Source: a virus
Taxonomy: Duplodnaviria > Caudoviricetes
Reading direction: 5' to 3' (one strand)
Length of the DNA: 35,914 nucleotides
Virus record (IMG/VR): IMGVR_UViG_3300043414_000013
Coordinates: 1 to 35,914 of that record
Made by a program: the position numbers and the translations under genes. Of this stretch, positions 4,657 to 35,873 are shown one piece after another. Each line of letters starts with the position of its first letter. Position 1 is the first letter of the stretch. Under the pieces are notes generated by a model. That model did not search any database, was not told where the DNA came from, and saw only the letters and a program-made list of their open reading frames with translations.

Positions 4657-5871
4657 TTACTTCATCAGGGCGCTGTTGTCAAACTTCTGGCCGTTGCGCT
4701 CAAGGATGGTCATGCTCTTTTCTTCGCCAGGAAATGTGACAAAGTTGCGGGTTACTTTTGGCGGGATAAGGGTTTGTTCAGGATTTCGTTTTAAAAACGC
4801 CTCTGCTGATTCTTTAGTAGAAAACACGTTTTCACCACCTTGTGGGTGGCGAACAATGTAGGTGTTTGCTAAGTTGCGTGAGCCTTCATCCAGATACTTG
4901 ATGCCGGGTATGCCAGCTTCACGCATTGCATTTGCACCAGCAGATCTTTTAGCATTCATTGCAGCCAAAAGATCACCACCCAAATGGTCTGCGTCAGTCA
5001 ATCCATATTGCTTTGCAAGTGCTTGAATTTCCGGTGTCTGATCTTTTAATGGCGCATCCCAATCCAACATCTTGGCAATCTTTTCATCTGGCAGATCTAT
5101 CTTGTAAAGATTGCCTTTGTTTTCCAAAGGCTTTTTGTAATCTCCAGATTCTAAGAAATTTAAAGTCTCTGTCAGTAACTTTTTTTGTTCATGGTTAGGA
5201 TTAGATTCAAGAACAAAACGAATATCATCAGCAGCATACTGAGGACTGCCAGTTAATTCAGCCAATCGTTGAGCATTTGCATGAGCCGTTAATCTACCCT
5301 GATTCATCTTGTCTGCATTAGCTAAATTCTTTGCATAACCTTCTGCTACCGGACGCGCTTCAGCCGTATATATGCCATATCCATACGCTTGGGCACCTTC
5401 ACCAGTGCCAATCTTGCTGGCATCAAACTCGCCAAGTGGGTTGCGGGCCGTTGGTGGCAGTCTGTGCGGTGTGCCGTGATAGACATCCAAGGGAAGGATG
5501 TTGCCAGTCTTAACCATGTACTGCTCTGCCAACTCGCCAACCTTGGGTGCTACAAACCGGCCAGTTGCCATTGCACCCTTACCGGCCAACTTTGCTGCTG
5601 GGCCAACCATGGGGGCTATTGCCATTGCTGACTCTAAGGCGTCGTTGTTGAACCTTGTTGTACCACCGATACCACCAGCGCCAGTTGTCAGAGGTTCGCC
5701 GTAGGACAGTCTATCCAATGTCCGGCTGATGGCTGGGACTGACAAGAACTGTGCCAGTTGCTGTGCCTGCTGGGTGCGCTCTGGGCTGTAGGTGCTTGCC
5801 AGTGCATCCGACAACCGGCCAAGCATGGCGTTGCGCGGTGTGGCCTGAATTAGGGCGTTGGATGGTGGCAT
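4657..5871 (-). CDS. ADP-ribosyltransferase-fold protein (ART-PolyVal-like), putative ejected effector
   Basis: VYHGTPH...FDASKIGTGEGAQAYGYGIYTAE...A..Y, LYKIDL, GIPGIKYLD and NFVTF motifs, with an Ala/Gly-rich N-terminal leader. Confidence 0.7.
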   Translation of the reverse strand: MPPSNALIQATPRNAMLGRLSDALASTYSPERTQQAQQLAQFLSVPAISRTLDRLSYGEPLTTGAGGIGGTTRFNNDALESAMAIAPMVGPAAKLAGKGAMATGRFVAPKVGELAEQYMVKTGNILPLDVYHGTPHRLPPTARNPLGEFDASKIGTGEGAQAYGYGIYTAEARPVAEGYAKNLANADKMNQGRLTAHANAQRLAELTGSPQYAADDIRFVLESNPNHEQKKLLTETLNFLESGDYKKPLENKGNLYKIDLPDEKIAKMLDWDAPLKDQTPEIQALAKQYGLTDADHLGGDLLAAMNAKRSAGANAMREAGIPGIKYLDEGSRNLANTYIVRHPQGGENVFSTKESAEAFLKRNPEQTLIPPKVTRNFVTFPGEEKSMTILERNGQKFDNSALMK

Positions 5872-8136: not shown

Positions 8137-10175
8137 TCCGCAGCCTTTTCTACCTTTGGCACAGTTCGGTACAACTCATTACGGAAAACAACCATCTCTT
8201 TTTTGGATAACCCGTCTACCGATTCTTTGAACCTTCTGGCATTTATGCCATGCCCCTTGGCTGATTCACGCCACTCATCGTAGTTGGCAGAAACGTCCAT
8301 TCCGTCCATGCCATCGGTCTGTTTCTTGAGTTCAATGGCAACTAGGCAGTTCAAGGCAATCAACTGGTTGCCTGGCAGCACGGTGCGCTTCTGAACACTG
8401 CTCACCAGCCCGCTGATGTCTACGCTGGTCAGGTACGCACCCTTCACCGGCAGGTTGTGCTTGTCTAGAATTGGCAGATCCACCTGCGTGATCTGGAAGT
8501 TCTTGGCCGCTGGCATCTCGGCATCCTTCATCTTCTTGCTTTCAAACTGGATGGTCTTGGAGCCTGAGTCAAGCTGGCACTTGTACTCTGCATCCAGCGC
8601 GCCTTTGAGTGCCGTACTTCCACGGCTGCGGTCTTTGTCCATGGCGCCGCTGTGGTGTACTACTAGGACGCAGCAACGGTAGTCCTGCCGCAGGTAGGTA
8701 TCAAGGTGCTGGATAAACGAATTCATGTCTTGAGTTGAATTCTCATCGCCACCCATGTTCCGAGCCAAGGTGTCAATCACAATCATGGATGGAATATGCC
8801 CGCACTCGGCGCTCAGAGTCTTAATAGACTGCGCCACTAGCGCGGCCTCTGTCGCGTCGTATAGCTGCGCTGCACGGTGGCTCTTGAACAATGGTGCGCC
8901 GGTCAGGCTTACGCCGTTGCCGAGTTCCCAGCCCTTGAAACGCCTCGCCAACCCGTTGTGGCCCTCGCCTGCTATGTAGAACACTGCCCCCCTTTGTACT
9001 TGGTGCCCGTGCCATGCTGTGCCTGTTGCTATGCAGCAGGCTATGTCAATACTGACAAAAGACTTACCGCCGCCTGGATCTCCGAAGACCTGCGCCAAGC
9101 TGTCTGCCTCAATGTAGTCATCCACGATCCACTTGATCTCTGTCAATTGCAAGCTGTCAGCACGGCTGAACTCAAACTGCAACTTCTCACGCACTGGCCC
9201 TGCTACGCGCTCAATCTGGTCTTTGACAGCATCCAAGCCCTGCAGGCAGTGCAGGTCGTTGAAGTCCGTTGGTTTGTTGTCAGTCATGTCAGATTCGCTG
9301 AAACTAGGATAGACAATCTCGCCAAAGACCAATGCCGCCGCTGCACGGCCCTTAGTCACGCCAGGGTTGCCATCCGTGAACTGGTCATTATCCGCGCCAA
9401 TCACAATGCGACTGCCAGGGAACATCTCCTTTGCCGCCTTGGCTACCTTGGCTAAGTTCCCACAGTCAAACGCCACCATGACCGTGTAACCCGTCGCCTC
9501 ATGGATACTGGCGCAGGTTGCAAAGCCCTCGCCAATGAAGATGATCTTGCGATTACCGCGCAACTCAAAGAACCCGCCCTCAATCTTGCCGCCCTTCAGG
9601 AACCGCTTATTGCCTTCTGCGTCAATCGTTTGGTAACTCAAGATCTCACCATGCTGGTCAATCACCGGCACCACCAGCCGCCCCGCACGGTCAATCTTGA
9701 TCCCGTGTGGCTCTATGTGCTTGCGAATCAAGTACGGATGGTCAGCGCTCGCATCCGCATAGGTGCTAACCTCATCCTCTGCCTTCTCAGCAGCTACCGC
9801 TTGGCTTGCTACCCTGTCAGCCTCCTTCTTAGCCTTGAGGTCATTCATCCACTTATCATGCTCAAAGCGCTCAGTAAATGACATGGCCCTGCCAGTGTCA
9901 GCTATCCACTTGGCCTCAAACGTCGGCTCCTTCCAGCAGCCTGCAATGCCCACCGGCACCTTACCGCTGGTGTGCAAGATGTACCAACCATCCAGCGCAT
10001 TCTTCTTGCTGGAGATGTGCGCCACCCTGTGGATCTCGCCATCAGCAATGATCTCCTTGATCAATAGACCTGAAGCCTCACAATGCGCCCTGAACGCCGC
10101 CTCTGGATTAACCAGGTCTTGGCTCTCTGTTGCTGCGGCGAAGCCGTTGGGGAAGATGTTTGTTAAGGATGTCAT
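8133..10175 (-). CDS. Primase-helicase (TOPRIM + RepA/AAA_25-type helicase)
   Basis: HPYL..K, IGEGFAT and GADND TOPRIM motifs; GDPGGGKS Walker A, IVIDTL Walker B, VVHHSG, RGSTAL. Confidence 0.93.
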   Translation of the reverse strand: MTSLTNIFPNGFAAATESQDLVNPEAAFRAHCEASGLLIKEIIADGEIHRVAHISSKKNALDGWYILHTSGKVPVGIAGCWKEPTFEAKWIADTGRAMSFTERFEHDKWMNDLKAKKEADRVASQAVAAEKAEDEVSTYADASADHPYLIRKHIEPHGIKIDRAGRLVVPVIDQHGEILSYQTIDAEGNKRFLKGGKIEGGFFELRGNRKIIFIGEGFATCASIHEATGYTVMVAFDCGNLAKVAKAAKEMFPGSRIVIGADNDQFTDGNPGVTKGRAAAALVFGEIVYPSFSESDMTDNKPTDFNDLHCLQGLDAVKDQIERVAGPVREKLQFEFSRADSLQLTEIKWIVDDYIEADSLAQVFGDPGGGKSFVSIDIACCIATGTAWHGHQVQRGAVFYIAGEGHNGLARRFKGWELGNGVSLTGAPLFKSHRAAQLYDATEAALVAQSIKTLSAECGHIPSMIVIDTLARNMGGDENSTQDMNSFIQHLDTYLRQDYRCCVLVVHHSGAMDKDRSRGSTALKGALDAEYKCQLDSGSKTIQFESKKMKDAEMPAAKNFQITQVDLPILDKHNLPVKGAYLTSVDISGLVSSVQKRTVLPGNQLIALNCLVAIELKKQTDGMDGMDVSANYDEWRESAKGHGINARRFKESVDGLSKKEMVVFRNELYRTVPKVEKAAE

Positions 10176-11005
10176 TTAATTTCTTTCACTGAGTATTCTC
10201 CAAGCACTTGCTGCACAGAGTGGGACTTGTCCATTTCCAATGGCTTTAAGTCTGTCCACCCTAGCGGCCACCCCATCAGCCACTCTACCCACGTTGGGTT
10301 CAATTGCCCACTGGTCGGATGTACCGATTGACTTAGCGATATTTGCTTGCCAATGTCCACCCTTCTCTGCACCGATGGGTTGCTCATGTTGCCCCTGTCC
10401 CTGCAGTCTGAGGCTTGGGGCGTTGGGAATTTCTTCGCATGAGTCGGCAAATCGTGCTCCAATCCTTTCATACTTCGCCCACTGCTTCCCTTCCAATCTC
10501 TTGCCTGAGGTGTTGGTATTCTTTCCAACAATCCATATCCTGTCCCTCTGGTGTTTTGCTCCAACGTCCGCTGCTCCCAGCACTCCCCATCTCGCATCAA
10601 ACCCCATTGCGGCCAAGTCTCCAAGAACGGTTCCAAGTCCTCGACCAGTGAGCATTGGTGAGTTTTCCACAAACGCGAATCGAGGTCGTACTTCGTGAAT
10701 GATGCGCGCCATTTCTCGCCACATCCCGCTGCGCTCTCCGTCAATTCCTGCGCCTCGTCCTGCTGAACTAATGTCTTGGCATGGAAACCCTCCCGATACA
10801 ACGTCAACAATTCCTCTCCACGGTTTTCCGTCAAAGGTTTGAACGTCATCCCAAATCGGGAAAGTCGGGAGAAGACCGTCATTTTGTCGGGCGCACAGTA
10901 CGCTTGCTGGGTACGGTTCCCACTCAACGGCACAGACGGTTCGCCATCCAAGCAAATGTCCACCGAGTATTCCTCCACCAGCGCCTGCGAAAAGAGCCAA
11001 CTCAT
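10172..11005 (-). CDS. C5 DNA methyltransferase beta-like polypeptide (TRD + motif IX) in an alternative frame
   Basis: 277-aa frame fully overlapping the MTase, with PTPQA(R/S)D repeats and GQLNPTWVEWLMGWPLGWTD. Its stop overlaps the primase ATG (ATGA). True start uncertain. Confidence 0.8.
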   Translation of the reverse strand: MSWLFSQALVEEYSVDICLDGEPSVPLSGNRTQQAYCAPDKMTVFSRLSRFGMTFKPLTENRGEELLTLYREGFHAKTLVQQDEAQELTESAAGCGEKWRASFTKYDLDSRLWKTHQCSLVEDLEPFLETWPQWGLMRDGECWEQRTLEQNTRGTGYGLLERIPTPQARDWKGSSGRSMKGLEHDLPTHAKKFPTPQASDCRDRGNMSNPSVQRRVDIGKQISLSQSVHPTSGQLNPTWVEWLMGWPLGWTDLKPLEMDKSHSVQQVLGEYSVKEIK

Positions 11006-11009
11006 TCAC
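10176..11009 (-). CDS. DNA (cytosine-5) methyltransferase, alpha-like polypeptide
   Basis: Motif I LFAGAGG, IV GGFPCQDIS, VI ENS, VIII HQRDRIW and X RLKAIGNGQVP. No motif IX in this frame. Confidence 0.93.
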   Translation of the reverse strand: MNELALFAGAGGGILGGHLLGWRTVCAVEWEPYPASVLCARQNDGLLPTFPIWDDVQTFDGKPWRGIVDVVSGGFPCQDISSAGRGAGIDGERSGMWREMARIIHEVRPRFAFVENSPMLTGRGLGTVLGDLAAMGFDARWGVLGAADVGAKHQRDRIWIVGKNTNTSGKRLEGKQWAKYERIGARFADSCEEIPNAPSLRLQGQGQHEQPIGAEKGGHWQANIAKSIGTSDQWAIEPNVGRVADGVAARVDRLKAIGNGQVPLCAASAWRILSERN

Positions 11010-24857: not shown

Positions 24858-25466
24858 TCACTCCAGTAACAGGCAGTTGTTAGCCGCAGCCTGCATAATA
24901 ATCCAATTGGTGCCATCTGACACCAATGTTGCCCAGTTGCCAGCCACATTCAAAAGAATCGAAGTGCCTGCTGCACCGCCGCCTCGGGGAACAACATTAC
25001 TTGAAGCTGACACCAGTGCCTGCGCTTGGTAGTTTTGAAAGTTCAACTCACGGCCAGAGTACGATGTTGGCGTTGGCAAAGTCACAACGCAGGTTGAACC
25101 TGCCTTGTTGTTGATTATCCACGAGTCTGTGGCCGCAACTGTGAAGTCAGCAGTCTTAGTCACAGGTGCTGTACTGGTGCTGGCAACAGAGATCGTGCCA
25201 GAACCATTGGTGATAACAATGCCCGTGCCTGCCGTTAGCGTGTTAAGGGTATACCCTGTGCCGTTGCCAATCAACAGTTGACCGTTGGTTGGAATAATCC
25301 CTAGGCCAGTGCCGCCGTTGATTACAGGAGTAACGCCGGTTCCCGTACCTGTAACCGAGTAGATGTTGTTGAACCACATGAACCACTCGCGTGAAACCGT
25401 GTTCGTCTGCACGTCTACCAATGGGACGCGAGGCGCTGGAATCTGCGAGATGTTCTGTGTAGCCAT
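24858..25466 (-). CDS. Tail needle/knob protein (P22 gp26 position)
   Basis: IPAPRVP..D......REWF.WF N-terminus, GGTG...GQLLIGNG..Y fibre repeat, C-terminal beta domain (LVSDGTNW); follows the gp10-like gene. Confidence 0.65.
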   Translation of the reverse strand: MATQNISQIPAPRVPLVDVQTNTVSREWFMWFNNIYSVTGTGTGVTPVINGGTGLGIIPTNGQLLIGNGTGYTLNTLTAGTGIVITNGSGTISVASTSTAPVTKTADFTVAATDSWIINNKAGSTCVVTLPTPTSYSGRELNFQNYQAQALVSASSNVVPRGGGAAGTSILLNVAGNWATLVSDGTNWIIMQAAANNCLLLE

Positions 25467-27028
25467 TAGGCATTTGTCGGTGACAAGACCAGTTCAGCAC
25501 CCATGATGGCAATCTTCACAGGGTCTGTGCCGGAAATTTCATACACACGGTCACGCAATTTCAGCGTCATGCCCAGCCGACGCCAAAAGACTCGTCGGTA
25601 ATATTCACCGATCTTGCCCATGTTAGACCAAGCCTCATTTGACCAAGTGTGACCGCCATCGTCTGAAAAACGCAGCATAACTTGGGGGTTGTAGCCGGGT
25701 GATGGCAAGATTGGGTTTGTTACCAAAATAACGCCATTCTCGGTGGTCAGTTCAATGCCTGTTTGAGTTGTAATTTCCTCTGAAGCATAGCCAGAAAAAA
25801 CATTTATTCCAACGCCACTTTCGCAATCAAGTTGAAGAGTGTGCTGCGCGGTACGTTTGAGGTTGTTCTGTCCGGTGGGCAGTGCGCGCCATGAGCGCAG
25901 CCACTTCTGAGTCTCACCATTGTCAGCGTACACATCCAAATCAAGTGTGTAGATGTTGCCGTTCTGAAAGTCGCCCACTACAGTGTTGCCACCAAAGTTG
26001 CATTGGCAATTGCTGCGGTGTCGAGTAAATTCACCATTGTCAAACCCTGCGCGCTCATGCCAGGCTTGGGTAGCCACATCGTAGACCCAAGTGGCGTTTG
26101 CGCTAGGAAACGTCAGCACATAAAAAGCATGGCCTTCTTGCTGATAGGTGTAGGCCAGCGCATTAGCCAAGTTACCGTACTGGGCAATCGCGTACTCAAT
26201 AGCATGGGTAGACACTCGGACACCAGCATAGCCGTTGGCTTTGTAGACGATGCCTTGTCCACGGGGGTCTGTGCCAAGCCAGAACAGGCTATTGTCCAAC
26301 TTGGCAATTGAGAATGCGGCTACACAGCCAATCTCGTTAAAAGCACCTTGAATGGGCGACAGTGGGAATCCCGTAAGGCCAGCGTCATACCAGACTTCAG
26401 TAGTATCTGTGCCGTACACCCAAAGCTGCCGGTGATCCGAAATAACACCTACTACGCCATCGGGTGATCCATCAGCGGTGGCGACTGTAAGTGGGTCAAA
26501 CACCAAAGGGTAGATGTAATCACCCGTAACTGCATCTTGGGAAATCACTGACCATATCCGCTGGCTGTCTGGCTCGTTAAACACAAACAGCAAGTTGATA
26601 TAGGTCACAGTCACAGCACCCACAAAGTTAGGGTCGGTGATTTGGTCAAACTCGCCCGTGGGCTCGTAATAGGTGTAGCTTGGGCCGTTACAGGCAAAGA
26701 AGATTGTTGCCCCATTGTCTGCAATTGAAACAGGGCCGGTGCCGGATACATCGCCAATCTTGACAGGTGTAGCTGTCAACCCTGTGAGCTTGTAGACCTC
26801 GGTGCCTGAGACAACGTAGAAGTCAGTGCCATTGGTCTGGTGCGCCCACAACCCACGGATAGGGCCGGTGCCTACGGTTTGCAGGAAGTTCAGACCTGGT
26901 GCGCGGCTCAGAAACCCGGCTTCTTTCCCGCCCTCGGGAATGATCTCGGGGAACAAGTTGACCATGCGGTTATCCGCAGCGTTGACGCTACGGGCCACAT
27001 ACGACGATCCAAGAATGGGTGTCTTCAT
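25466..27028 (-). CDS. Tail hub / DNA stabilisation protein (P22 gp10-like)
   Basis: RMVNLFPE, RVSTHAIE, YQQEGHAFYVLTFP...TWVYD..T..WHER, SDDGGHTWS, WRRLG. Confidence 0.9.
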   Translation of the reverse strand: MKTPILGSSYVARSVNAADNRMVNLFPEIIPEGGKEAGFLSRAPGLNFLQTVGTGPIRGLWAHQTNGTDFYVVSGTEVYKLTGLTATPVKIGDVSGTGPVSIADNGATIFFACNGPSYTYYEPTGEFDQITDPNFVGAVTVTYINLLFVFNEPDSQRIWSVISQDAVTGDYIYPLVFDPLTVATADGSPDGVVGVISDHRQLWVYGTDTTEVWYDAGLTGFPLSPIQGAFNEIGCVAAFSIAKLDNSLFWLGTDPRGQGIVYKANGYAGVRVSTHAIEYAIAQYGNLANALAYTYQQEGHAFYVLTFPSANATWVYDVATQAWHERAGFDNGEFTRHRSNCQCNFGGNTVVGDFQNGNIYTLDLDVYADNGETQKWLRSWRALPTGQNNLKRTAQHTLQLDCESGVGINVFSGYASEEITTQTGIELTTENGVILVTNPILPSPGYNPQVMLRFSDDGGHTWSNEAWSNMGKIGEYYRRVFWRRLGMTLKLRDRVYEISGTDPVKIAIMGAELVLSPTNA

Positions 27029-27046
27029 GGTTTAGGTTATTGTCAA

Positions 27047-27976
27047 TTAAGCAACTGCGCCACTGATGACGGCAAAGTTAAAAACCGGAGTTTCAGTAGT
27101 CGTGCCGCCTGTGGTTCGGAACGTAATGTTAAAACTTCCTGCTGCTACTGCTGTAACCATCAAGTCGTACAAGTCTGTACCTGACTTTTGGTTAAGAATA
27201 ATGACATCAGTTGCAGCAACCGTATTGTTGCTCACAGTAAATGTGGTGGCTGTGGTAGTGCCAGCCGCGCTAAACAAAGTGATTGCGCCTGTTGGCTTGT
27301 TCAACAACACAGTATTTGTTCGTGATGTTGCTTGCGTTACCGTGCCGCCAGCACCTGTCGTATAACCAGTTTTTCCAGAACTGTTGTTGACTAAAACATT
27401 ACCCGCAGCAGTCAATGCGCCATTGAATGTGGCGTCTGCCCCATTCCAGTAAGCGCAAACATTTCCATCACCATCGCTCAATACAACATAGTTGCTGCCT
27501 GTCAAGCTGATAGGTGCGCCCAAACCGCTGTAGTTTCCGATGATGGTGTTCTTGGCTCCGCTGGTAATCGAGCCGCCTGCATTTCGCCCCACGCCCGTGT
27601 TAAAACTTCCGGTGGCTGCACCTAATGCCAACAGACCCACAGCTACGTTGTTTGAGCCAGCTACATTTGCAATCATTGCGCCAAAACCCACGGCCACATT
27701 GCTTATGCCGGTAGTGTTTGCTTTTAATGAATCAGCCCCGACGGCCACATTGCCATTGCCGGTAGTGTTTACCAAAAAAGAATCATTACCTATCGTTGTG
27801 TTGGTAAGGCCGCTACTAGGGCCAACACCCAATGCAACACGGTTTATCTTGTTAACAGAATTAAACAAATTAGCATTTGTGATTTGACTTGTAACGCCGT
27901 TCTGAACGACTGGGATAACGTCACCCACAAGGCCAGTTGTAACCACCGGCAACGAGGAGATTGCAATAGTGCTCAT
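27047..27976 (-). CDS. Fibre protein: ISxLP N-domain + 17-aa NVAVG beta-roll repeats + C-terminal beta domain
   Basis: MSTIAISSLP..IPVVQ.G.T.QI; NVAVG repeats; C-terminus similar to 28942..29358. Confidence 0.7.
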   Translation of the reverse strand: MSTIAISSLPVVTTGLVGDVIPVVQNGVTSQITNANLFNSVNKINRVALGVGPSSGLTNTTIGNDSFLVNTTGNGNVAVGADSLKANTTGISNVAVGFGAMIANVAGSNNVAVGLLALGAATGSFNTGVGRNAGGSITSGAKNTIIGNYSGLGAPISLTGSNYVVLSDGDGNVCAYWNGADATFNGALTAAGNVLVNNSSGKTGYTTGAGGTVTQATSRTNTVLLNKPTGAITLFSAAGTTTATTFTVSNNTVAATDVIILNQKSGTDLYDLMVTAVAAGSFNITFRTTGGTTTETPVFNFAVISGAVA

Positions 27977-27977
27977 A

Positions 27978-28694
27978 TCAATAGTTTCCTGCGTAGATGT
28001 TGAACCGTTGACGAGTTGCCACCAGCGAGTACGGCATGGACATGATGTCGTCTGGGTTGTTGATGCGCTTAAGATCGCGCTTGCTGGTCATGGCAATGCG
28101 CTGCACTTGGGGGCTAGGCTCAACGCCAAACTCAGGTGCAAACTCCATTGCCAGACAGTAGGTAAACGCCCGCAGGTAACCCGGTGGATAGAACAATTCC
28201 GTTGCTAGATTGGCAGGCTGATTTAACTCTTGCACCGACACAAAGTGCCACTCCAAGTCCCGTGTGGGGCGTGGATAGATGGACATCGTAATGTCGGGAA
28301 ATCCCATGTTTGTGAAGATCACCTGTGGGTAGGTGGAGGTCACGGTCTTAACCGCAATACCGTTGTACTGCTGCTGATTGATGAACTTGATACCGAAAGA
28401 CACGTTGGTGCCTGGGTCACGGTAGTAAGTGGCTTCATCTAGCAACACAGGGCGCAAGCCAATGAAGTCACCCGATGGGCCAAGGGTGCGGGTGATAAGG
28501 CCAGCAGGCCAAGTAAATATCTGGTCTTGGGTGCAGAAAACCGCCAAACGCTCAATTGACCATGAGTCAATCATCTGATTTAAGGCAACCAGCGCGTCTT
28601 GCGAGGTAGCTGCCGATGGCGTTTCACCTTCGGCTAGGACACCGAGCAGTCGGAGTGCCCTGTTAATTTGGTCGCCCGCCGTGTAAATTGCCAT
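27978..28694 (-). CDS. Head-tail adaptor (P22 gp4-like)
   Basis: TAGDQINRALRLLGV..GE.P....DAL..LN.M.DSW; P.GY..A..Y.LA.E.APEFG. Confidence 0.85.
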   Translation of the reverse strand: MAIYTAGDQINRALRLLGVLAEGETPSAATSQDALVALNQMIDSWSIERLAVFCTQDQIFTWPAGLITRTLGPSGDFIGLRPVLLDEATYYRDPGTNVSFGIKFINQQQYNGIAVKTVTSTYPQVIFTNMGFPDITMSIYPRPTRDLEWHFVSVQELNQPANLATELFYPPGYLRAFTYCLAMEFAPEFGVEPSPQVQRIAMTSKRDLKRINNPDDIMSMPYSLVATRQRFNIYAGNY

Positions 28695-28695
28695 G

Positions 28696-28899
28696 TCAGA
28701 TTTCCTCGGTTACAGCCCTGCGCGTGTACTTGCGTTTGATGTTCAACGCATTGATTGGCAACTCATCCTCTGGTTTAGAGGTTGGAGCAGGCTCGTCTGG
28801 ATTGTACCGCGACCAGCCATTTGATTCATCATAAACGGCTTCAAGTTCCATAGTGGCAACTTTTCGCCCGTGGACAGGGTGCATTAAATAGATGTTCAT
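28696..28899 (-). CDS. Small conserved protein (YL.HP.HG.KVA..E.EA..DE.NGW), 67 aa
   Basis: ATG 28899; lies between the decoration genes and the gp4-like gene. Confidence 0.75.
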   Translation of the reverse strand: MNIYLMHPVHGRKVATMELEAVYDESNGWSRYNPDEPAPTSKPEDELPINALNIKRKYTRRAVTEEI

Positions 28900-28903
28900 A
28901 CCC

Positions 28904-28924
28904 AAAAAGGGGGCCGAAGCCCCC
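28904..28924 (-). terminator. Intrinsic terminator GGGGGC-TTCG-GCCCCC-TTTTT
   Basis: UUCG hairpin plus U-tract after 28942..29358. Confidence 0.8.
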
Positions 28925-28941
28925 CTCTTGTTAGGTGCAGC

Positions 28942-29358
28942 TTACGATGCGCCGTGGATGATGCTGAAGTTGATGATCACTGCTTCAGAATATGAAGTAG
29001 CGGCAGTCAAATTTCGCAACGTAATCAAAGCAGAACCAGCAGCCAGATAAGACACATAAGTGGTGTAAGCGCCAGCAGTACTACCCGTAGTATTACTGGA
29101 AATATTCACAATGATTGTGTCTTTAATAGAAATTGTGCTGTTGGTCAAAATAAACGACACAGCAGTAGCTCCTGCCAACGCTGCGTCGTGCATTGTGATG
29201 CGGCCAGCACTGGTATTTAGCGTAACGCCTGTGGATTTGCTGGTCAACTGCGTTACCGCACCTTGGGCTGCTGCGCTGTAGCCAATTTCTTGGCTTGCGT
29301 AGCAGGTAGTGAACTCAGGGTCGGTGTATGCAACACCGCTTGATTGTGAGTTTGCCAT
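28942..29358 (-). CDS. Putative capsid decoration / head fibre protein
   Basis: Thr/Ser/Ala-rich beta protein; strong RBS; second gene after the coat gene. Confidence 0.65.
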   Translation of the reverse strand: MANSQSSGVAYTDPEFTTCYASQEIGYSAAAQGAVTQLTSKSTGVTLNTSAGRITMHDAALAGATAVSFILTNSTISIKDTIIVNISSNTTGSTAGAYTTYVSYLAAGSALITLRNLTAATSYSEAVIINFSIIHGAS

Positions 29359-29371
29359 GATTGTTTCCTTT

Positions 29372-29392
29372 AAAAATAGGGGCCGAAGCCCC
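29372..29392 (-). terminator. UUCG hairpin GGGGC-TTCG-GCCCC-TATTTTT
   Basis: Directly after the stop of 29401..29823. Confidence 0.7.
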
Positions 29393-29400
29393 CATTCAAA

Positions 29401-29823
29401 TTAGCCAACGCGATACAAAGACCAAGCGCCGTCACCAGTCTTGACAGCACGGTAGTTTTGAGCCGTGCCAGCAGTCGTGACAGTCATCAAGCCTTGTGAG
29501 CCAGACGAACCAATTGACCAGCCGGTGTTGGTGGTGATCGTAATCACGCCGCTACCAGAACCATTGGTGTTGATCACCACAAACTCAAAGCTGCTACCAA
29601 TTTTTGCGCTGGACACAACTGCGTCCAAATCAGTAACCAAAGGCAATGTGTATGCCGCTGCGGTTGTGGTGGGAGTGCCCAAGATGATACCGTTCAACAA
29701 CTGGGTAGTTGTCAGCGTTGCCGTGACAGTTGCCGTTGCTGGGGTAGTCTGGGTGTTCATCTGAATTTCTGCCAGATTGCCGTCACCAATTTGATAACCG
29801 CCTGTGCCGTTAGGGAGAGCCAT
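29401..29823 (-). CDS. Putative capsid decoration protein
   Basis: MALPNG.GGYQ.GDGN..E; Thr/Ala-rich; immediately after the coat gene. Confidence 0.65.
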   Translation of the reverse strand: MALPNGTGGYQIGDGNLAEIQMNTQTTPATATVTATLTTTQLLNGIILGTPTTTAAAYTLPLVTDLDAVVSSAKIGSSFEFVVINTNGSGSGVITITTNTGWSIGSSGSQGLMTVTTAGTAQNYRAVKTGDGAWSLYRVG

Positions 29824-29849
29824 GATAATTTCCTTTGAAAGATGTTACG

Positions 29850-29869
29850 AAAGAAGGGGCCGAAGCCCC
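29850..29869 (-). terminator. UUCG hairpin GGGGC-TTCG-GCCCC-TTCTTT after the coat gene
   Basis: Stem-loop plus partial U-tract. Confidence 0.7.
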
Positions 29870-29876
29870 ATTCAAT

Positions 29877-31085
29877 TTAGCCCCAGATGCGGCAAGCCAT
29901 TTGAGGACGGATGGTGTTGAAGCCATACAGAACGTCAATACGGCAAGGCATACGGTCGTTGTTGATGTCGTACTGACGGACAACGCGCAAGCTAATACCG
30001 TTATGCACTGCGCGAGCAGCCATGTCAACGCCTTGGGGCAGCAACAAGTCAGCCGTAGCAAACGTGATTGCGTCCTTGTGATAGACCAAGTTCTGTGCGT
30101 AAGCAGTAGAAGCAGTGCCCACAAAGGTCACAACAGCGTTGATCAGTGGCAGGGCAGTCATGGTAGCCAGTGCGTGAGCAGCGGAGTACATGGGAGCCAC
30201 GGTCACAGTCCAAGTGCCAGACACAGCGGTTGCATCAGCCAGAGCCACAAACTGGAACAACGAACCAGTGGTTTCACGGGTTTGTGGGTTCACAGCAAAG
30301 ACGCTACCGCAGGTAAACACGTCACCAGCCTTGATGGTCGTGGACACAGAGGCTTGCGACAAGCTCAGAGTGGCAGAACCTTCCGAAGTCACCGAAGCGG
30401 CAACGATGGTAGCGGCAGTAGCGTCACGCGAACCAGTGGTGTGCTGCTTGATCGACTGAGACATGTTGATTTCTTCGTAACCCAAAACGCCAGTACCCAT
30501 CATGCCGTTCTTGAACTGCTTGCTGATAGTGTCGGTGGGGTTGAACAAACCTTTCATGCCTTCAACTAAACCAGCGTTAGCGGCTGGGTTGACGGTGGCG
30601 TAACGTGGGTTCATCACAGCAGCGTTCTCGTTCAACTTCTGCTGGGCTTGCAACAGCACCAAAGAAGTAGAAGGAGTGGTGCCAGGAGTGCCGACGGTGT
30701 TACCGATAGTGCGGTAAGCGTTTGCAACATCAGCATCAATGCTGGAAGCCAACTGGCTGATACGAGGCTTCAACACACGCTCTGCGAAGTCGTCCAATTG
30801 CATGGTCAGTTCAGCAGAGGTGAAGTTAACACCAATGTGCTTCTGGCTGGCAACGGTCAAAGTGGTGAACTGCTCGTTGTCGTCCTGAACTTGCAGGGCG
30901 GCACCGTCAGTGACCAAAGCGCGATCAGGCAGACGGATACGCAGTGTGGAGCCAATTTTGGCGCCTTGCACAGCGAAGCTGTCATCGTACTGGCGGTTCA
31001 CGTTGCGCGTGAGAACCAGGTTGTTTTCGAGAATCTCAAGCGCTTTGCGCGTGATCATGTCAATGGTTAGGATTGAGTTAGACAC
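29877..31085 (-). CDS. Major capsid protein (P22 gp5 family)
   Basis: ITRKALEILENNL, KIGSTLRIRLP, FTSAELT..LDDF, YHKDA.TFATADL..P, CRIDVLYG; GTG start with AAAGGA RBS. Confidence 0.95.
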   Translation of the reverse strand: MSNSILTIDMITRKALEILENNLVLTRNVNRQYDDSFAVQGAKIGSTLRIRLPDRALVTDGAALQVQDDNEQFTTLTVASQKHIGVNFTSAELTMQLDDFAERVLKPRISQLASSIDADVANAYRTIGNTVGTPGTTPSTSLVLLQAQQKLNENAAVMNPRYATVNPAANAGLVEGMKGLFNPTDTISKQFKNGMMGTGVLGYEEINMSQSIKQHTTGSRDATAATIVAASVTSEGSATLSLSQASVSTTIKAGDVFTCGSVFAVNPQTRETTGSLFQFVALADATAVSGTWTVTVAPMYSAAHALATMTALPLINAVVTFVGTASTAYAQNLVYHKDAITFATADLLLPQGVDMAARAVHNGISLRVVRQYDINNDRMPCRIDVLYGFNTIRPQMACRIWG

Positions 31086-31109
31086 AATTAAGTCCTTTAA
31101 AGTAAAAAA

Positions 31110-31877
31110 TTAGCGGATACGTTGTGCTTCGTACTTCTTCACTTGCCTTGCACGTTCAGCTTCAATCCACTGGCTGGTTGTCATGGTCTTGATAGACCGT
31201 GGGTCAGTCGTGTCTTGCGATGGTGATCCAGAGGATCGTGCATTAACAGGTGAAATCGGCGCGGGCGCAGACGTTGTTCTTTTCATGGGAGGTTCAGCGG
31301 CCAATTTGGCTTCGATCTTCCCAATTTCCTTTGCTTGGCCGAGTGGCGACAGACGGGCAATACGATCTGCATCTTTGGGGTTGGAGCCGAGGTAGTAAGC
31401 TAACTCAGGCCCAATGTCCGAAGACTGGATCGTTTCAGCCATGACGTTCGTGATGCTAAGTTTGGGGTTGTACGCGACTTGTTCAAAGTCATCGTATTTA
31501 CTCCGCGCTTCTTCTTCACGCTCGTGATAGCTCTCAAGAACTTGCGATTGCTGCTTTGCAGCTTCCCGTTTGGCAATCAATTCTTCTGCCTTCTGATATG
31601 CTAGTGCATCGGCATACGCTTCAGGTGTTTCAAACTGGTCAACCGTCTGAGTTGCTGGAGCCCTCAACACCTGCTGTTCGGCTTGGCGTTGCGCTTGATC
31701 TCGTTCCCACTTCCGTTGCTCTCTTGCAAGGCGTTTTCCAATTGCGGCATCAAGTTCCTCTTGCGAGAATGTTTTGGCGACCTCAACTTCCGGCGTTTCT
31801 ACTACAGTTTCAGGCGCAGCCGTTGCTTCCTGTACTGGCACGGGTGTAACCGCTAGGTTTTCGACTTCTTCAGTCAT
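31110..31877 (-). CDS. Scaffolding protein
   Basis: Acidic N-terminus, FSQEELDA.I.KRL, coiled coil, GPELAYYLG.NP, AP.PI.P; upstream of the coat gene. Confidence 0.85.
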   Translation of the reverse strand: MTEEVENLAVTPVPVQEATAAPETVVETPEVEVAKTFSQEELDAAIGKRLAREQRKWERDQAQRQAEQQVLRAPATQTVDQFETPEAYADALAYQKAEELIAKREAAKQQSQVLESYHEREEEARSKYDDFEQVAYNPKLSITNVMAETIQSSDIGPELAYYLGSNPKDADRIARLSPLGQAKEIGKIEAKLAAEPPMKRTTSAPAPISPVNARSSGSPSQDTTDPRSIKTMTTSQWIEAERARQVKKYEAQRIR

Positions 31878-31883
31878 TGTCTT

Positions 31884-31915
31884 GAATCCTTAGATTCCCT
31901 GGTGTTCTGCACCAG
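31884..31915 (-). promoter_or_regulatory. Two-hairpin leader sequestering the scaffold RBS
   Basis: Minus strand reads CTGGTG-CAGAA-CACCAG-G-GAATC-TAAG-GATTC-AAGACA-ATG. Confidence 0.55.
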
Positions 31916-31928
31916 TACAGTTAATATA

Positions 31929-32429
31929 TCAGAAATACGTCACTTCAATCAAAGATGTCAGTGGCGGCGCTTCTGAGAATGTTAGTGTAGCACCACTAAG
32001 GGTAAACGTAGACTTGTTCTGGTAGACGCCATTGATGTAAACCTGAATGTTGTTTTCAGACCTTGGGCTGTTACTCAAGGTAAACACAACTGTTGACCCA
32101 TTGCCAGTAAAGTTATCCACCACCATTGTGGTTGACCCAATACTAGGCACATTGTCGTAAGTGGCAATCGTGACATCAGCCGAGGTCTTCAATACAAACT
32201 TGTAGTCAATGCTTGCATTAACCCACACCTGCCCCCCAGGCACACGTCCAGCCGAGTCCAACACAATTGGGTTTGTGTGGTTAGTTGCACCCGTGTAGGT
32301 GGTGTAAGTGGCTACAGGAGTCGTAGAGCCCGCTTGGTAGGTGTAAATCTTCCCACCAGACAAGGGAACACCGTTGGCATCAAACAGTTGCCAGCCTACG
32401 CCAGCAAAGGAGGATAGAGCATAAATCAT
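31929..32429 (-). CDS. Tailspike head-binding-like domain + small C-terminal beta-sandwich (adaptor)
   Basis: QLFDANG.PLSGGKIYTY.AG.TTP..TY...NPIVLDSAGR, then FTGNGS...FTL...P...V.INGV.Q...LTFSEAPP..IEV.Y. Confidence 0.7.
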   Translation of the reverse strand: MIYALSSFAGVGWQLFDANGVPLSGGKIYTYQAGSTTPVATYTTYTGATNHTNPIVLDSAGRVPGGQVWVNASIDYKFVLKTSADVTIATYDNVPSIGSTTMVVDNFTGNGSTVVFTLSNSPRSENNIQVYINGVYQNKSTFTLSGATLTFSEAPPLTSLIEVTYF

Positions 32430-32626
32430 TTGTCAACCAATGCAGTAGTAGTCAGTTCACGTAGCACTAGCATTACAACGGGCCACAACATAACGATGTA
32501 GGCGCTGTAGGGCGCAGGCAACAACTGTCCAATGAAGCCACTATTGGCCTCAATGACAGTCAGCAGCGCACCTACTATGGCTACCCAGTATGTCTTAGAC
32601 TTTAAACGCTGGACAATAGCATTCAT
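32426..32626 (-). CDS. Two-TM holin-like protein, 66 aa
   Basis: ATG 32626; LKSKTYW + two hydrophobic helices + LR..TT..L. Confidence 0.65.
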   Translation of the reverse strand: MNAIVQRLKSKTYWVAIVGALLTVIEANSGFIGQLLPAPYSAYIVMLWPVVMLVLRELTTTALVDK

Positions 32627-32970
32627 ACCGTCACCCAAGGCAGAGCAGGTTCAGCAGTAGCTTGTGCCAATTGACGAGCAATCTGTTCAGTTACTTGTGC
32701 TTCACCTTCGTCTTTAATAAGGCGAGTAGATGTTTGCTCAACATTATCAAGATTTTTCCAAGTGGTAACTTCAGGTGAGAAACACCAGGCAAGCACTTGC
32801 GCTTCTGTAAGTTGGTCATATGGCGTAAAGAAGGTACTACGCATTAGATTGCGAGTGTAAGCAGCAGAGGCTGTGTTGTCGCCATCAGTAGCGGTGACTG
32901 TTAGGTCAACTTTGACAACCAGATTGTCTTCAGCGACTGTAACTTTGTTAACTGACCATTTGAATTCCAT
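32623..32970 (-). CDS. Fibre-associated small protein (PYDQLTEAQVL.W...LPW), possible chaperone
   Basis: Motif typical of genes following tail fibres; AAGGA RBS. Confidence 0.65.
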   Translation of the reverse strand: MEFKWSVNKVTVAEDNLVVKVDLTVTATDGDNTASAAYTRNLMRSTFFTPYDQLTEAQVLAWCFSPEVTTWKNLDNVEQTSTRLIKDEGEAQVTEQIARQLAQATAEPALPWVTV

Positions 32971-32985
32971 GATTTATCCTTTAAT

Positions 32986-34431
32986 TTAAGTATTAACGTA
33001 GGAGCCAATATTTATTTTTCCATCCGGCGTCTGAAAAAAAGTAAACATTGATTGAGAATTTGCTGTGACATTTGGTTGTGGGTAAGTAGTTAACGCTGTA
33101 TTACCCATTTGACCAGAACCTGCCCATGCTATTGATTTGTTACCAAAAGATGATTGTTTAATAAGTATTGAGAATGGTGTAAAGCATTCGTTAAGAAAAT
33201 ACAACGCACCAATATTGTCAGTCATTGTTAAACTAGCTGATTTTGCGTAAGGCCCAATTGTTGCGCCTCCACCAGATTGCGTGACAATTTGCTCTCCATT
33301 TGCTGTCGTTAGATTGCCCAAATAATCAACAATATATTTTCCAGCAGCCAATTCAGTGTTAATTACTGTTAAATCTTGACCGCGTACAACCGATGTTGAA
33401 ATGTTTATATTGCCAGAAAAAGTACACCCTTGAAAAATAAATTTCTGGTTGTACGAACTGGCTGCTGAAATAGTTACTGACGGCAAAGTTCCATTGCTAT
33501 AATCTTGGCAATTAATTAAAGTTGTTGGTTTAATTACTGCACCATTAGCTACTGAACTATACAACAATCCACCAGCCCCCGTTTCTTGCCAACAATTTTG
33601 TATTAACAGTCCTTGCGCACCAGCAGACCCAAGAATGGATTTATTAAAAATTAAATACCCAGAGCCAATAATTCCAGCGTTGTAACTTAGGGCACTGGCT
33701 ATGCAATTTGATACTGTGGATGATTGGCCACCATAATCAAACCAAATTCCATAAGCGCAGCCGTTTACCCATGTGGAAGTCCAATCCCTATAAAATTGAA
33801 GTTGGTCATAAACACCAAGATCAGCATTCCATTCATTAATATGAAGGCCAGATCGTTGGCATCCATAAAAAGTAATTTGTTGAAAACGATTGCAATAAAA
33901 CTGCCGCCCTCCTGGTATGGCGGTAGGGGTTCCCTCAGTCCCAACAATAATCCCATCGCGCTGAGCATTAGATATATTGCATTTTTGAACTGTATTAGTA
34001 ACACTTCCGTTTGTGGTGCTTGACGAGTAGATTTGAATCCCATATCCCGCAAGAAAATTACAGTCAATTGTTAGCCCTTCAATGACTAAACCATTGCATC
34101 GGTCAAAAGAAAACATTGCTGACCCAATAGCCGATGCCCCACCCCATTTAATAGTTACTTTGCTGCTTCCATTAATTATAGAGTTTGCGCCATCATATCC
34201 AGCAAGACCAATTATTTTTATGGAATCTTGCGATGTCATTGTTAATGAAGAATCAATACGATAAACACCTGATGGAAATTGAATTTCACGAATTCCACTT
34301 GTTGTGGCGTATGTAAATGCCGCCTGAATTGCAGCGTAAGAGTTTGTAGCCCCTGTTGCATCCGCACCAAAATCAAGAACATTGATAGGCGCTCCGCTTA
34401 TCATGGAGTTTGTTACTTTGGTAAGAGACAT
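32986..34431 (-). CDS. Tailspike / beta-helix depolymerase (pectate-lyase-3-like start)
   Basis: NVLDFGA..TG.T....AIQAA.....I.FPSG.Y.I; Asn/Ile/Gly-rich beta-helix; visibly AT-rich. Confidence 0.8.
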   Translation of the reverse strand: MSLTKVTNSMISGAPINVLDFGADATGATNSYAAIQAAFTYATTSGIREIQFPSGVYRIDSSLTMTSQDSIKIIGLAGYDGANSIINGSSKVTIKWGGASAIGSAMFSFDRCNGLVIEGLTIDCNFLAGYGIQIYSSSTTNGSVTNTVQKCNISNAQRDGIIVGTEGTPTAIPGGRQFYCNRFQQITFYGCQRSGLHINEWNADLGVYDQLQFYRDWTSTWVNGCAYGIWFDYGGQSSTVSNCIASALSYNAGIIGSGYLIFNKSILGSAGAQGLLIQNCWQETGAGGLLYSSVANGAVIKPTTLINCQDYSNGTLPSVTISAASSYNQKFIFQGCTFSGNINISTSVVRGQDLTVINTELAAGKYIVDYLGNLTTANGEQIVTQSGGGATIGPYAKSASLTMTDNIGALYFLNECFTPFSILIKQSSFGNKSIAWAGSGQMGNTALTTYPQPNVTANSQSMFTFFQTPDGKINIGSYVNT

Positions 34432-34433
34432 AT

Positions 34434-35033
34434 TTACACCGTGTAAGTTATAGTTGCAAATAAATATTTATTTAATCCTGCAACTATTGCTGATGATGTT
34501 GTATCGTTTGCATCAACTATATCCAAAGTGGTTCTTGTTGTAGAGCCAATAGCGGCGACACTTACTGATGCGCCTAATTGATATTTAGCAACTGTACCAA
34601 TTGCAGAATACGCTGTTGAAGCGGCGGCGGTAAACGGTATGCCAGTAACATACATAGCACCAACGCCGCCAGTAGTATTTACATTTGAAAACTCTATATA
34701 TAATGTAACTTGTCTGCCAATTCGAGTGTATCTACCAACAGCAGTTGGTGGAGTTATTGGAGGAACTAAACTTGTTAAAGTTCCAGTCCAAGTCCCCTCC
34801 TCATACCAATTCAGCAACTGGCTTGTCATTCCCGCTACTGGAGTGTTTGCAGTAAAGTTGTAGCCCGTTGCAGCAGTACCTTGCACAATACCGTTAGAAG
34901 TTTGTGTGCGTCCAGCCGTCAAGTTAGCAACAGACACTTGCCTTGTTGCGCTGCTTTGGACAATAGGCAGTACCTCAGTACCAGCAAGCGGTGTAGTTGA
35001 TGCCGGTAGGGCAGAGATTTTTAAGTCAGCCAT
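34434..35033 (-). CDS. Short fibre: ISxLP N-domain + YEEGTWT C-terminal domain
   Basis: MADLKISALP..LPIVQ...T.QV; L..YEEGTWT...G.YTRIGRQV...GIPF. Confidence 0.7.
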   Translation of the reverse strand: MADLKISALPASTTPLAGTEVLPIVQSSATRQVSVANLTAGRTQTSNGIVQGTAATGYNFTANTPVAGMTSQLLNWYEEGTWTGTLTSLVPPITPPTAVGRYTRIGRQVTLYIEFSNVNTTGGVGAMYVTGIPFTAAASTAYSAIGTVAKYQLGASVSVAAIGSTTRTTLDIVDANDTTSSAIVAGLNKYLFATITYTV

Positions 35034-35036
35034 TTA

Positions 35037-35201
35037 TCACTCCAAAAGGATCAGACCGCCGTCCTCTTGCACGAGGTTATCGCCGATCTCGGTTAACAAG
35101 TTGCTTTGTGCAATTGCATTGGCATCGCCAGACAGGAACGAAATCACGCTCCCAAGGCCAATGGCAACACCATTGCGGATGGGCATTCCAAAGAAGCTCA
35201 T
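35037..35201 (-). CDS. 54-aa peptide ending LLTEIGDNLVQEDGGLILLE
   Basis: Translated by hand; ATGA overlap with the upstream gene; 3 nt before the next ATG. Confidence 0.8.
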   Translation of the reverse strand: MSFFGMPIRNGVAIGLGSVISFLSGDANAIAQSNLLTEIGDNLVQEDGGLILLE

Positions 35202-35500
35202 TGGATATTAATGGGCTTGCAATAAATCGTGCCACCCGTGGACACTTGAATTGCACTTACGCGCCATTGACCGCTAACGCTAAAAGGCACTTTGAACGGG
35301 ATAGGTGTGTACGGTGGGACTGGGGTGCTGGCGGTTGTGGCCGTAACACCTTCGCCAACCAACACATAGCAAGCCTGGTCAGACCAGACAACCACACCTT
35401 GGGGGCCAGCGGGCCATGCACCAGTTACACCAGCAGTGCCGGTGTAGGTAATAGATTTGGCTGGGAAGTTGGTATCGGCTAACGGGTTTAAGAGTTCCAA
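35198..35500 (-). CDS. Hypothetical virion beta-sandwich protein, 100 aa
   Basis: TTG start with AAGGAG RBS; beta-rich. Confidence 0.75.
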   Translation of the reverse strand: MELLNPLADTNFPAKSITYTGTAGVTGAWPAGPQGVVVWSDQACYVLVGEGVTATTASTPVPPYTPIPFKVPFSVSGQWRVSAIQVSTGGTIYCKPINIQ

Positions 35501-35510
35501 GGTGTTCTCC

Positions 35511-35873
35511 TTATGCTAAGAAACGCAATTTGTACAAAGTGCGAAGATAAATTTCAATGATGTTGTCAATCAACTGCTGCAAAGATGAGTCAGATTCATC
35601 GCAGATTTCGTACCTGTTAGCTTCAATTTGCTTCAAGGAATCTTCCAAAAACTCAATGACGTTGCTTGTTTTCTTTGCCGATTGTAGGGTAATTGGCCCC
35701 AATAAACCATGCCGCCCCTGATAGGCTTCAGCAAAATCATCAGCCGCACCAATGATGCGGTCATAAAAAATATTTAAGGCTACATGCTTGGAGTAGCTGC
35801 GGGTATTCAGATGCACCGAGTGCGTCACATCCCGAGCCAAGAACAGCAGTCCTACAAAGTCACATGCTTTCAT
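35511..35873 (-). CDS. Dps/ferritin-like protein (DUF5856-like)
   Basis: H21-L-N...H30...D45..E49 spacing as in the Dps ferroxidase site; helical; coupled to the portal stop. Confidence 0.75.
   Translation of the reverse strand: MKACDFVGLLFLARDVTHSVHLNTRSYSKHVALNIFYDRIIGAADDFAEAYQGRHGLLGPITLQSAKKTSNVIEFLEDSLKQIEANRYEICDESDSSLQQLIDNIIEIYLRTLYKLRFLA

What the first reader, a model, noticed from the sequence alone, without database searches (positions are those of the whole stretch)
25715..35201. Candidate plug-and-socket code for attaching trimeric fibres: (h-x-x-E-x-G-x-x)x3 peptides paired with ISxLP domains
Seen: the 54-aa peptide ends LLTEIGDN-LVQEDGGL-ILLE, and the gp10-like hub contains ITTQTGIE-LTTENGVI-LVTN (25715-25774), the same 8-residue period three times. 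Each lies in a gene adjacent to a fibre gene with a homologous N-terminus: MADLKISALP..LPIVQSSATRQVSVANL (34434..35033) and MSTIAISSLP..IPVVQNGVTSQITNANL (27047..27976). The needle-like protein also ends in LLLE. Inference: a monomeric three-repeat peptide binds the three subunits of a trimeric ISxLP domain and solves the symmetry mismatch. Inserting a 20-codon tag into a virion protein would then create a new fibre attachment site. I know of no description of this as a general system.
Basis: inference. Interest (0 to 1): 0.8.

Follow-up and report, generated by a model that had tools for sequence, protein, structure and literature searches.

The report
Three-repeat plug docks phage fibres
A 20-residue, three-repeat peptide recurs on many unrelated phage particle proteins, mostly right beside a fibre gene with a matching 40-residue start domain, and is predicted to clip a three-chain fibre onto the virion, one repeat per chain, with a charge swap that likely keeps plug types apart.

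Summary
Confirmed and extended. This near-complete P22-like phage genome has two three-repeat, period-8 plugs (end of a 54-aa peptide; insert in the gp10-like hub) and two fibres with a homologous N-terminal ISxLP 'socket'.

The hub insert and an adjacent socket gene come and go together (18 both, 46 neither, 8 insert only, 1 socket only of 73 hubs). Plug carriers equal socket genes in 36 of 38 long loci. A model of 3 sockets + 1 plug scores 0.78 (best control 0.02), one repeat per chain.

Loci fetched by plug alone show a compensatory change at a modelled contact: Arg-type plugs go with an acid at socket position 23 (40/41 and 33/33), Leu-type never (0/21). The pair also occurs in sipho-, myo- and crassviruses, including crAss001 THB/gp22, whose cryo-EM paper (passages read) does not mention it.

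Not supported: strict adjacency and a role for the needle's LLLE. Binding and the 'insert a tag' idea are untested. No Pfam or PDB-profile match; my paper searches found no general description. The scan noted similar joints on other DNA (e1-8116588, e1-5763506).

The parts
35040..35099 (-). Plug A: three period-8 units (hh-x-E-x-G-x-x, last one half) at the C-terminus of the 54-aa peptide
   Evidence: modelled one unit per socket chain
35037..35201 (-). 54-aa carrier peptide: hydrophobic Gly-rich N-terminal half (likely virion anchor, inferred) plus plug A
   Evidence: 486 relatives among 540 pattern hits; no PHROG or Pfam family
35198..35500 (-). 100-aa small jelly-roll protein whose gene overlaps the peptide's start; candidate holder of the peptide's N-terminal half (inferred)
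   Evidence: precedes the peptide in most of 85 distinct peptide loci listed; model pLDDT 88; generic jelly-roll matches only, best Z 7.4
34896..35033 (-). Socket A: N-terminal 46 aa of the 199-aa fibre (ISxLP ... VLPIVQ ... T-x-x-V-x-V-x-x-L)
   Evidence: hairpin-plus-helix model pLDDT 78.5
34434..35033 (-). Fibre A (199 aa), directly behind the plug-A peptide
   Evidence: PHROG matches of unknown function
27839..27976 (-). Socket B: N-terminal 46 aa of the 309-aa fibre
27047..27976 (-). Fibre B (309 aa, tailspike-like middle), inserted between the gp4-like adaptor and the hub
   Evidence: absent in most relatives whose hub lacks the insert
25715..25774 (-). Plug B: three period-8 units inside a 39-aa insert of the hub; insert-free relatives have a 7-aa loop here
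25466..27028 (-). P22 gp10-like hub/nozzle carrying plug B
   Evidence: phrog_578, E 2.7e-114; PDB 9vyg and 7eeq by sequence
24858..25466 (-). Needle-like protein ending in LLLE; not shown to be part of the system

Best explanation
The three-repeat peptide is a portable docking plug that is predicted to bind the N-terminal ISxLP domain of a fibre trimer, one repeat per chain, and so likely anchors the fibre on whatever virion protein carries the peptide.

In the model, equivalent residues of the three units (8 apart) each pair with residues 4-6 of a different chain. The first residue of each unit also packs on residue 23 (Thr30 is nearby) of a neighbouring chain. One linear chain thus fills three symmetric sites and bridges a single-chain carrier and a three-fold fibre (predicted).

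In this phage, plug B would hang fibre B on each hub subunit (inferred). Plug A would hang fibre A on the 54-aa peptide, whose other half likely binds the virion through the neighbouring jelly-roll protein (inferred, site unknown). Plug position 1 and socket position 23 (or 6) change together, hydrophobic with Pro versus Arg with Glu/Asp (shown as covariation); this likely gives two non-cross-reacting classes (inferred).
For: (1) Hub insert versus adjacent socket gene in 73 of 86 distinct hub cores with at least 1.3 kb upstream: 18 both, 8 insert only, 1 socket only, 46 neither; Fisher p 5e-10. On a tree built without the insert the plug state changes at least 20 times; 9 independent pairs give 6.6 same, 0 opposite, 2.4 no difference, median p 0.016. 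About 1.2 kb of shared hub sequence lies between socket gene and insert.
(2) Plug carriers equal socket genes in 36 of 38 distinct loci with at least 8.5 kb upstream.
(3) Socket-first loci: the upstream gene's tail scores 8 bits or more with a plug profile built from other phages in 27 of 57 distinct tails, against 0 of 535 control tails; about 69 of 80 loci by eye.
(4) Plug-first loci: the next gene is a socket for 42/52, 32/41 and 21/46 C-terminal plugs; 19 of the 25 misses in the last set look socket-like by eye; opposite-strand control 0.
(5) Complex model: score 0.78 (runs 0.78/0.75/0.81), best of 3 controls 0.02, runs agree in at least 96% of contacts, partner pLDDT at least 78. The mark was reached by 116 of 157 solved and 2 of 215 mismatched pairs; those counts hold only roughly for this job.
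(6) Acid at socket position 23: 40/41 and 33/33 with Arg plugs, 0/21 with Leu plugs, p 2e-15; 0/32 in the socket-first and hub sets. The alignments folded held no Arg-type rows. The one exception (L375) has Asp at position 6, as do the crassvirus fibre starts.
(7) In one family of tandem-socket fibres a single hLVESG unit sits in cis before the internal sockets (43 of 59 internal copies overall).
(8) Plug carriers include tail-tip proteins, a sheath stabiliser and a wedge subunit.
Against: No binding experiment exists, and only pair A was modelled. Strict adjacency fails in 8 of 26 insert-bearing hubs (2 of these 8 inserts carry no clear repeat), and L038 has the socket gene without the insert. 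About 11 of 80 socket-first loci show no plug at the end of the upstream gene. Flavobacterium siphoviruses have an internal socket-like stretch and no plug in about 10 kb, and 16 of 59 internal tandem copies lack the cis unit, so the domain is not always plug-dependent. Counts are dereplicated by identity, not fully phylogenetically independent; only one search corrects for descent. The Arg-type viral set helped build the detecting profile; the other two sets were held out. Trimer state of the two window fibres was assumed, not tested.
Confidence: 0.85

Rival explanations
1. The plug binds the socket trimer but mainly as a folding or trimerisation template (donor strands); the fibre is held on the virion by other contacts, and the free 54-aa peptide is an assembly helper rather than an anchor.
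For: Single cis units precede internal sockets in tandem fibres, which looks like fold completion. Many carriers are small peptides with no family (16 of 34 carriers had no PHROG match). In crAss001 gp22 an N-terminal segment ahead of the socket lies within the residues said to dock in the hub.
Against: Plugs sit inside or at the end of core virion proteins: hub, tail-tip proteins, sheath stabiliser, wedge, crAss001 THB. A covalent part of the virion that binds the fibre start is an anchor. Some sockets occur with no plug nearby.
Confidence: 0.08
2. Plug and socket bind, but with another geometry, e.g. three plug chains each giving one unit, or several fibres per plug as in rope-and-bead fibres.
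For: Cis units are one per chain. Long hub inserts hold 4-6 partial units with only one adjacent socket gene. Only the 3:1 arrangement was modelled.
Against: The 2.5-unit length is constant across unrelated carriers. The model puts units 1, 2 and 3 on three different chains in exact 8-residue register.
Confidence: 0.04
3. The pairing is gene linkage in a mobile cassette; the acidic repeat folds on its own or binds a metal ion or another protein and does not touch the fibre.
For: The genes are mostly neighbours, so they can travel together. The repeat is acidic with regular Gly turns.
Against: The Arg/Glu covariation at a modelled contact, the model against its controls, the 1.2 kb of shared hub between the two elements, and the crassvirus pair about 20 kb apart with Arg plug and Asp socket.
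Confidence: 0.03

Closest known systems
crAss001 tail hub B (gp39) and tail fibre gp22 (Bayfield et al. 2023, PMC10172136, passages read; PDB 7qoj, 7qol, 8ckb by sequence)
   Same: THB ends in an Arg-type three-unit plug, kept in 4 of 4 crassviruses looked at. gp22 residues 22-56 match the socket profile (23.4 bits) with Asp at position 6. The paper says THB 67-107 reaches into the next hub and each hub holds residues 1-26 of trimeric gp22, so part of this joint is probably already in a deposited model (inferred).
   Different: The passages name no repeat, no one-unit-per-chain register and no wider family. gp22 has an extra N-terminal segment. I could not inspect coordinates or Extended Data.
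Fibre attachment loops FAL1/FAL2 of Pakpunavirus P7-1 gp89 (PMC13338283, section 9 and passages read)
   Same: A loop of about 21 residues on a single wedge chain anchors the N-terminal knob of a fibre trimer.
   Different: In the related phage PAK_P1 the corresponding loops are Gly/Phe-rich without the period-8 hh-x-E-x-G units, and its fibre starts give no socket-profile hit at 4 bits or more. Analogue, not member.
Rope-and-bead fibres of GP4, VP1, A1002 and the Bas63 collar (PMC13730344 and PMC12609058, passages read; GP4 paper itself not seen)
   Same: One extended chain binds oligomeric fibre subunits by beta-sheet augmentation; in A1002 the rope is part of the nozzle.
   Different: Beads are 140-170-aa dimers strung many per rope. 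Here a 20-residue motif is predicted to take one trimer by a 40-residue domain.
Bas63 wedge 1 and fibre 'baseplate binding domain' (PMC12609058, section 13 and passages read)
   Same: The unmodelled wedge-1 C-terminus holds a degenerate period-8 triple (9ndy_J); fibres of the related phage Rouille start with socket-like sequence.
   Different: The paper assigns the short fibre contact to wedge 2A and calls it unresolved. Membership is a lead only: the plug profile did not detect the Rouille wedge stretch.

Membership tests
P22-like podophage structural module (window) | P22-type portal, coat, gp4 adaptor, gp10 hub and ejection proteins | tested here: met
   PF16510, PF11651, phrog_637/12985, phrog_578, phrog_598
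crAss001 THB-gp22 joint | Hub-side chain ends in three period-8 x-x-T/S-E-D units | tested here: met
   4 of 4 crassvirus THB C-termini
crAss001 THB-gp22 joint | Fibre start homologous to the socket | tested here: met
   23.4 bits with the balanced profile; hhalign E 2e-4, probability 47.5; weaker in cr85_1 gp083 (12.3) and IAS (5.2); none in the DAC15 gene I tested
crAss001 THB-gp22 joint | Repeats contact separate gp22 chains in the deposited model | not testable with these tools
   coordinates not available; the paper gives only residue ranges
P7-1 fibre attachment loop / N-knob | Gly/Phe-rich loop on the small wedge subunit with its own fibre N-knob type | tested here: not met
   PAK_P1 wedge loops and fibre starts share no plug or socket profile hit at 4 bits or more; P7-1's own sequence was not examined
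Rope-and-bead fibres (GP4/A1002/Bas63) | Dimeric beta-sandwich beads of 140-170 aa | tested here: not met
   socket is 46 aa, one hairpin plus helix
Rope-and-bead fibres (GP4/A1002/Bas63) | The 100-aa jelly-roll neighbour is a bead on the peptide's N-terminal half | tested here: inconclusive
   generic jelly-roll matches only, Z 7.4 or less
Any curated Pfam family (DUF685, Mtd_N, T4_gp9_10_N as leads) | Socket matches the family profile | tested here: not met
   21 sockets gave one chance hit at E 0.17; the atlas lists these families only at 0.84-0.86, as leads
Solved fold for the socket monomer | Structural match in the PDB | tested here: inconclusive
   no match at Z 2 or more or E 0.001 or less; a 46-aa monomer model with pTM 0.41 is a weak query

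The most novel reading that the evidence does not exclude
A widespread, portable peptide-domain code for mounting trimeric fibres across podo-, sipho-, myo- and crassviruses. A 20-residue tag makes a fibre attachment site wherever it is placed (termini, internal loops, even nested inside another plug), and one charge swap (hydrophobic/Pro versus Arg/Glu) gives two orthogonal classes. That would be a natural 1:3 SpyTag-like connector on more than ten thousand protein clusters.
Probability: 0.55. Interest if true: 0.88.

Novelty: new variant of a known kind. Interest (0 to 1): 0.8.

Why it matters
How trimeric fibres attach to single-chain or six-fold parts of a virion, and how phages add fibres at new sites, has been answered phage by phage, often at the least resolved part of a map. 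This gives one sequence-readable rule.

It assigns a role to an unnamed domain found in 13,659 clusters at 50% identity and lets fibre position be predicted from genomes. It predicts specific salt bridges in the human gut phage crAss001. If the tag is portable, it offers a small 1:3 connector for protein assembly and for mounting receptor-binding proteins on laboratory phages.

Tried and rejected
Sequence and structure libraries:
- PDB searches with socket sequences and profiles and with the plug profile gave nothing significant.
- Fold searches with the socket monomer gave no PDB match; the weak Milano baseplate hit (E 4.9) was followed to its paper (passages) and shows no such repeat. BFVD gave mostly uncharacterised phage proteins.
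- The bacterial-genome scan with one socket word returned only 2 loci, which says little about cellular occurrence.

Needle LLLE as a plug: rejected for now. It is present in 19 of 49 needles behind insert-free hubs and 8 of 35 behind insert-bearing hubs, and socket counts balance without it.

A second code position (plug position 2 versus socket Lys5) was looked at in 11 hub pairs; too few lineages to claim.

Papers: ten searches found no description of the motif pair. One search (motif words) returned only irrelevant papers, and one search returned none. Passages of the phiTE, phi92 and Xacm4-11 papers describe other or unresolved fibre joints. Subscription papers (e.g. GP4) and supplements were not seen and may bear on novelty.

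Rows dropped: L166 (mis-parsed hub) from the tree and the count; L360 and L371 (false pattern hits) and L406 (signal peptide) from the detecting profile.
Full report
Setting. The window is a near-complete phage genome: its first bases recur at 35537 and the record is rated 98% complete. It has a P22-like structural module on the minus strand. A socket profile finds exactly two places in the genome. The plug pattern finds the two named places and one unrelated hit.

Hub insert and fibre B travel together. Among hub relatives the loop that holds plug B is 7 residues in most and 35-82 residues in the rest. Of 86 distinct hub cores, 73 had at least 1.3 kb upstream: 18 have insert and adjacent socket gene, 8 insert only, 1 socket only, 46 neither (p 5e-10). 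Of the 8, two inserts carry no clear repeat and one has a socket 5.5 kb upstream. Three further insert-bearing loci outside this table have their socket downstream. On a tree of hubs with the insert removed, the plug state changes at least 20 times; nine independent pairs go the same way 6.6 times and never the opposite way (median p 0.016). About 1.2 kb of shared hub sequence separates the socket gene from the insert, so simple linkage explains this poorly (inference). In 38 distinct loci with at least 8.5 kb upstream, plug carriers equal socket genes in 36 (0:0 six times, 1:1 twenty, 2:2 ten); both mismatches are cut short downstream.

The pair is general. The socket has no Pfam or PDB-profile match yet matches 13,659 clusters at 50% identity. 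In 80 loci fetched through a socket word, a fixed plug pattern hit 34 plus-strand and 0 minus-strand frames. The tail of the upstream gene scored 8 bits or more with a plug profile from other phages in 27 of 57 distinct cases, against 0 of 535 control tails; by eye about 69 of 80 loci have a plug there and 11 do not. In the reverse direction, loci fetched by plug DNA patterns alone have a socket as next gene behind 42/52, 32/41 and 21/46 C-terminal plugs, with 0 hits on the opposite strand; 19 of the last 25 misses look like divergent sockets by eye. Of 34 carriers scanned, 18 matched PHROGs: siphovirus tail-tip and J-like proteins, a sheath stabiliser, a wedge subunit and a nozzle-like protein among them. 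Cultured examples are Erythrobacter phage R6L, cyanophage KBS-S-2A and Aeromonas phage ZPAH14. Flavobacterium siphoviruses have an internal socket-like stretch and no plug in the 10 kb read.

Predicted structure. Three copies of socket A (residues 1-46) with the last 30 residues of the peptide scored 0.78 against 0.02 for the best control. Runs agreed in at least 96% of contacts and partner pLDDT was at least 78. The mark was reached by 116 of 157 solved and 2 of 215 mismatched pairs, counts that hold only roughly for this job. Plug residues 12, 20 and 28 of the piece each touch residues 4-6 of a different chain. First-position residues 11 and 27 touch residue 6 of one chain and residue 23 of another. 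This supports binding; it does not show it. If the crAss001 model holds part of this joint, the pass could be partly from memory.

An independent check of the interface. R6L and crAss001 THB have plugs with Arg at unit position 1. Scanning for that type alone, the neighbouring socket has an acid at position 23 in 40 of 41 (viral set, which helped build the detector) and 33 of 33 (held-out metagenome set) dereplicated cases. With Leu-type plugs it has an acid there in 0 of 21 (held out; p 2e-15) and 0 of 32 in the earlier sets. The one exception has Asp at position 6 instead, as do crAss001 gp22, IAS and cr85_1 fibre starts. Positions 6 and 23 are the two that the model sets against plug position 1, and the folded alignments held no Arg-type rows. 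In addition, one family of tandem-socket fibres carries a single hLVESG unit in cis before internal sockets (43 of 59 internal copies overall; other tandem families lack it), which fits one unit per chain.

Mechanism. Shown: the motifs, their co-occurrence, their counts and their covariation. Predicted: one plug binds one trimer, one unit per chain. Inferred: plug B gives the six-fold hub a set of side fibres. Plug A links fibre A to the virion through the peptide's hydrophobic N-terminal half and the 100-aa jelly-roll protein whose gene precedes it in most loci. That protein's fold matches are generic (best Z 7.4), with weak rows for capsid cement proteins, so a head or neck site is a guess at about even odds. 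Whether plugs A and B of this genome discriminate between sockets A and B is open: both are hydrophobic/Pro class.

What is known. crAss001 probably holds part of this joint in a deposited model, but the passages read give only residue ranges. P7-1 fibre attachment loops are a functional analogue with different sequence. Rope-and-bead fibres use chain augmentation with dimers. Bas63 has a degenerate triple in its unmodelled wedge-1 tail. Ten paper searches found no general description (listed under Tried and rejected); subscription papers and supplements were not seen. Earlier scan notes report similar joints on other genomes; I did not see their sequences and do not count them as evidence.

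Verdict. Strict adjacency and the needle LLLE do not. Fibre docking on a single-chain loop is a known kind of thing; a portable, family-wide three-repeat tag with a charge-coded partner domain is a variant I could not find described. Interest 0.8.

Noticed in passing
L013, L030, L076, L132, L177, L183 hub inserts (68-82 aa): Long inserts look like a second plug nested in the E-x-G turn of the first, with only one adjacent socket gene; possibly two fibres per hub subunit.
   Followed up: partly
L243:5206-5550 and L241:13947-14126 (crAss001 gp39, gp22): Arg-type plug at the THB C-terminus and Asp-type socket in gp22, about 20 kb apart; the plug is kept in 4 of 4 crassviruses looked at.
   Followed up: partly
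L236:6784-7632 (Erwinia phage Rouille wedge) and PDB 9ndy_J: Degenerate period-8 triple in the wedge-1 C-terminal extension; three following fibres start with socket-like sequence.
   Followed up: partly
L406, L471, L473: Sockets preceded by what looks like a signal peptide, next to plug genes.
   Followed up: no
L038:540-2848: The only hub with an adjacent socket gene but no insert; a possible recombination intermediate.
   Followed up: no
window 35198-35500; L162, L166, L206: At least four unrelated N-terminal halves carry the same C-terminal plug, and for three of them the type follows the type of the small protein gene upstream.
   Followed up: partly
window 31929-32429: A 166-aa protein whose relatives often sit between the plug peptide and the socket gene and are fused to tailspikes of many lengths.
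   Followed up: no
window 24858-25466: Needle-like protein: N-terminus ISQIP resembles the socket's first motif but does not match the socket profile; a C-terminal LLLE/LLIE-type end is seen in 27 of 84 distinct relatives.
   Followed up: partly
window 10172-11009: Two overlapping 277-aa frames on the minus strand; one looks like a cytosine methyltransferase by its motifs (recalled, not scanned).
   Followed up: no
window 4657-5871: 404-aa gene between terminase subunits with a weak ART-PolyVal hit (E 0.03, below cut-off).
   Followed up: no
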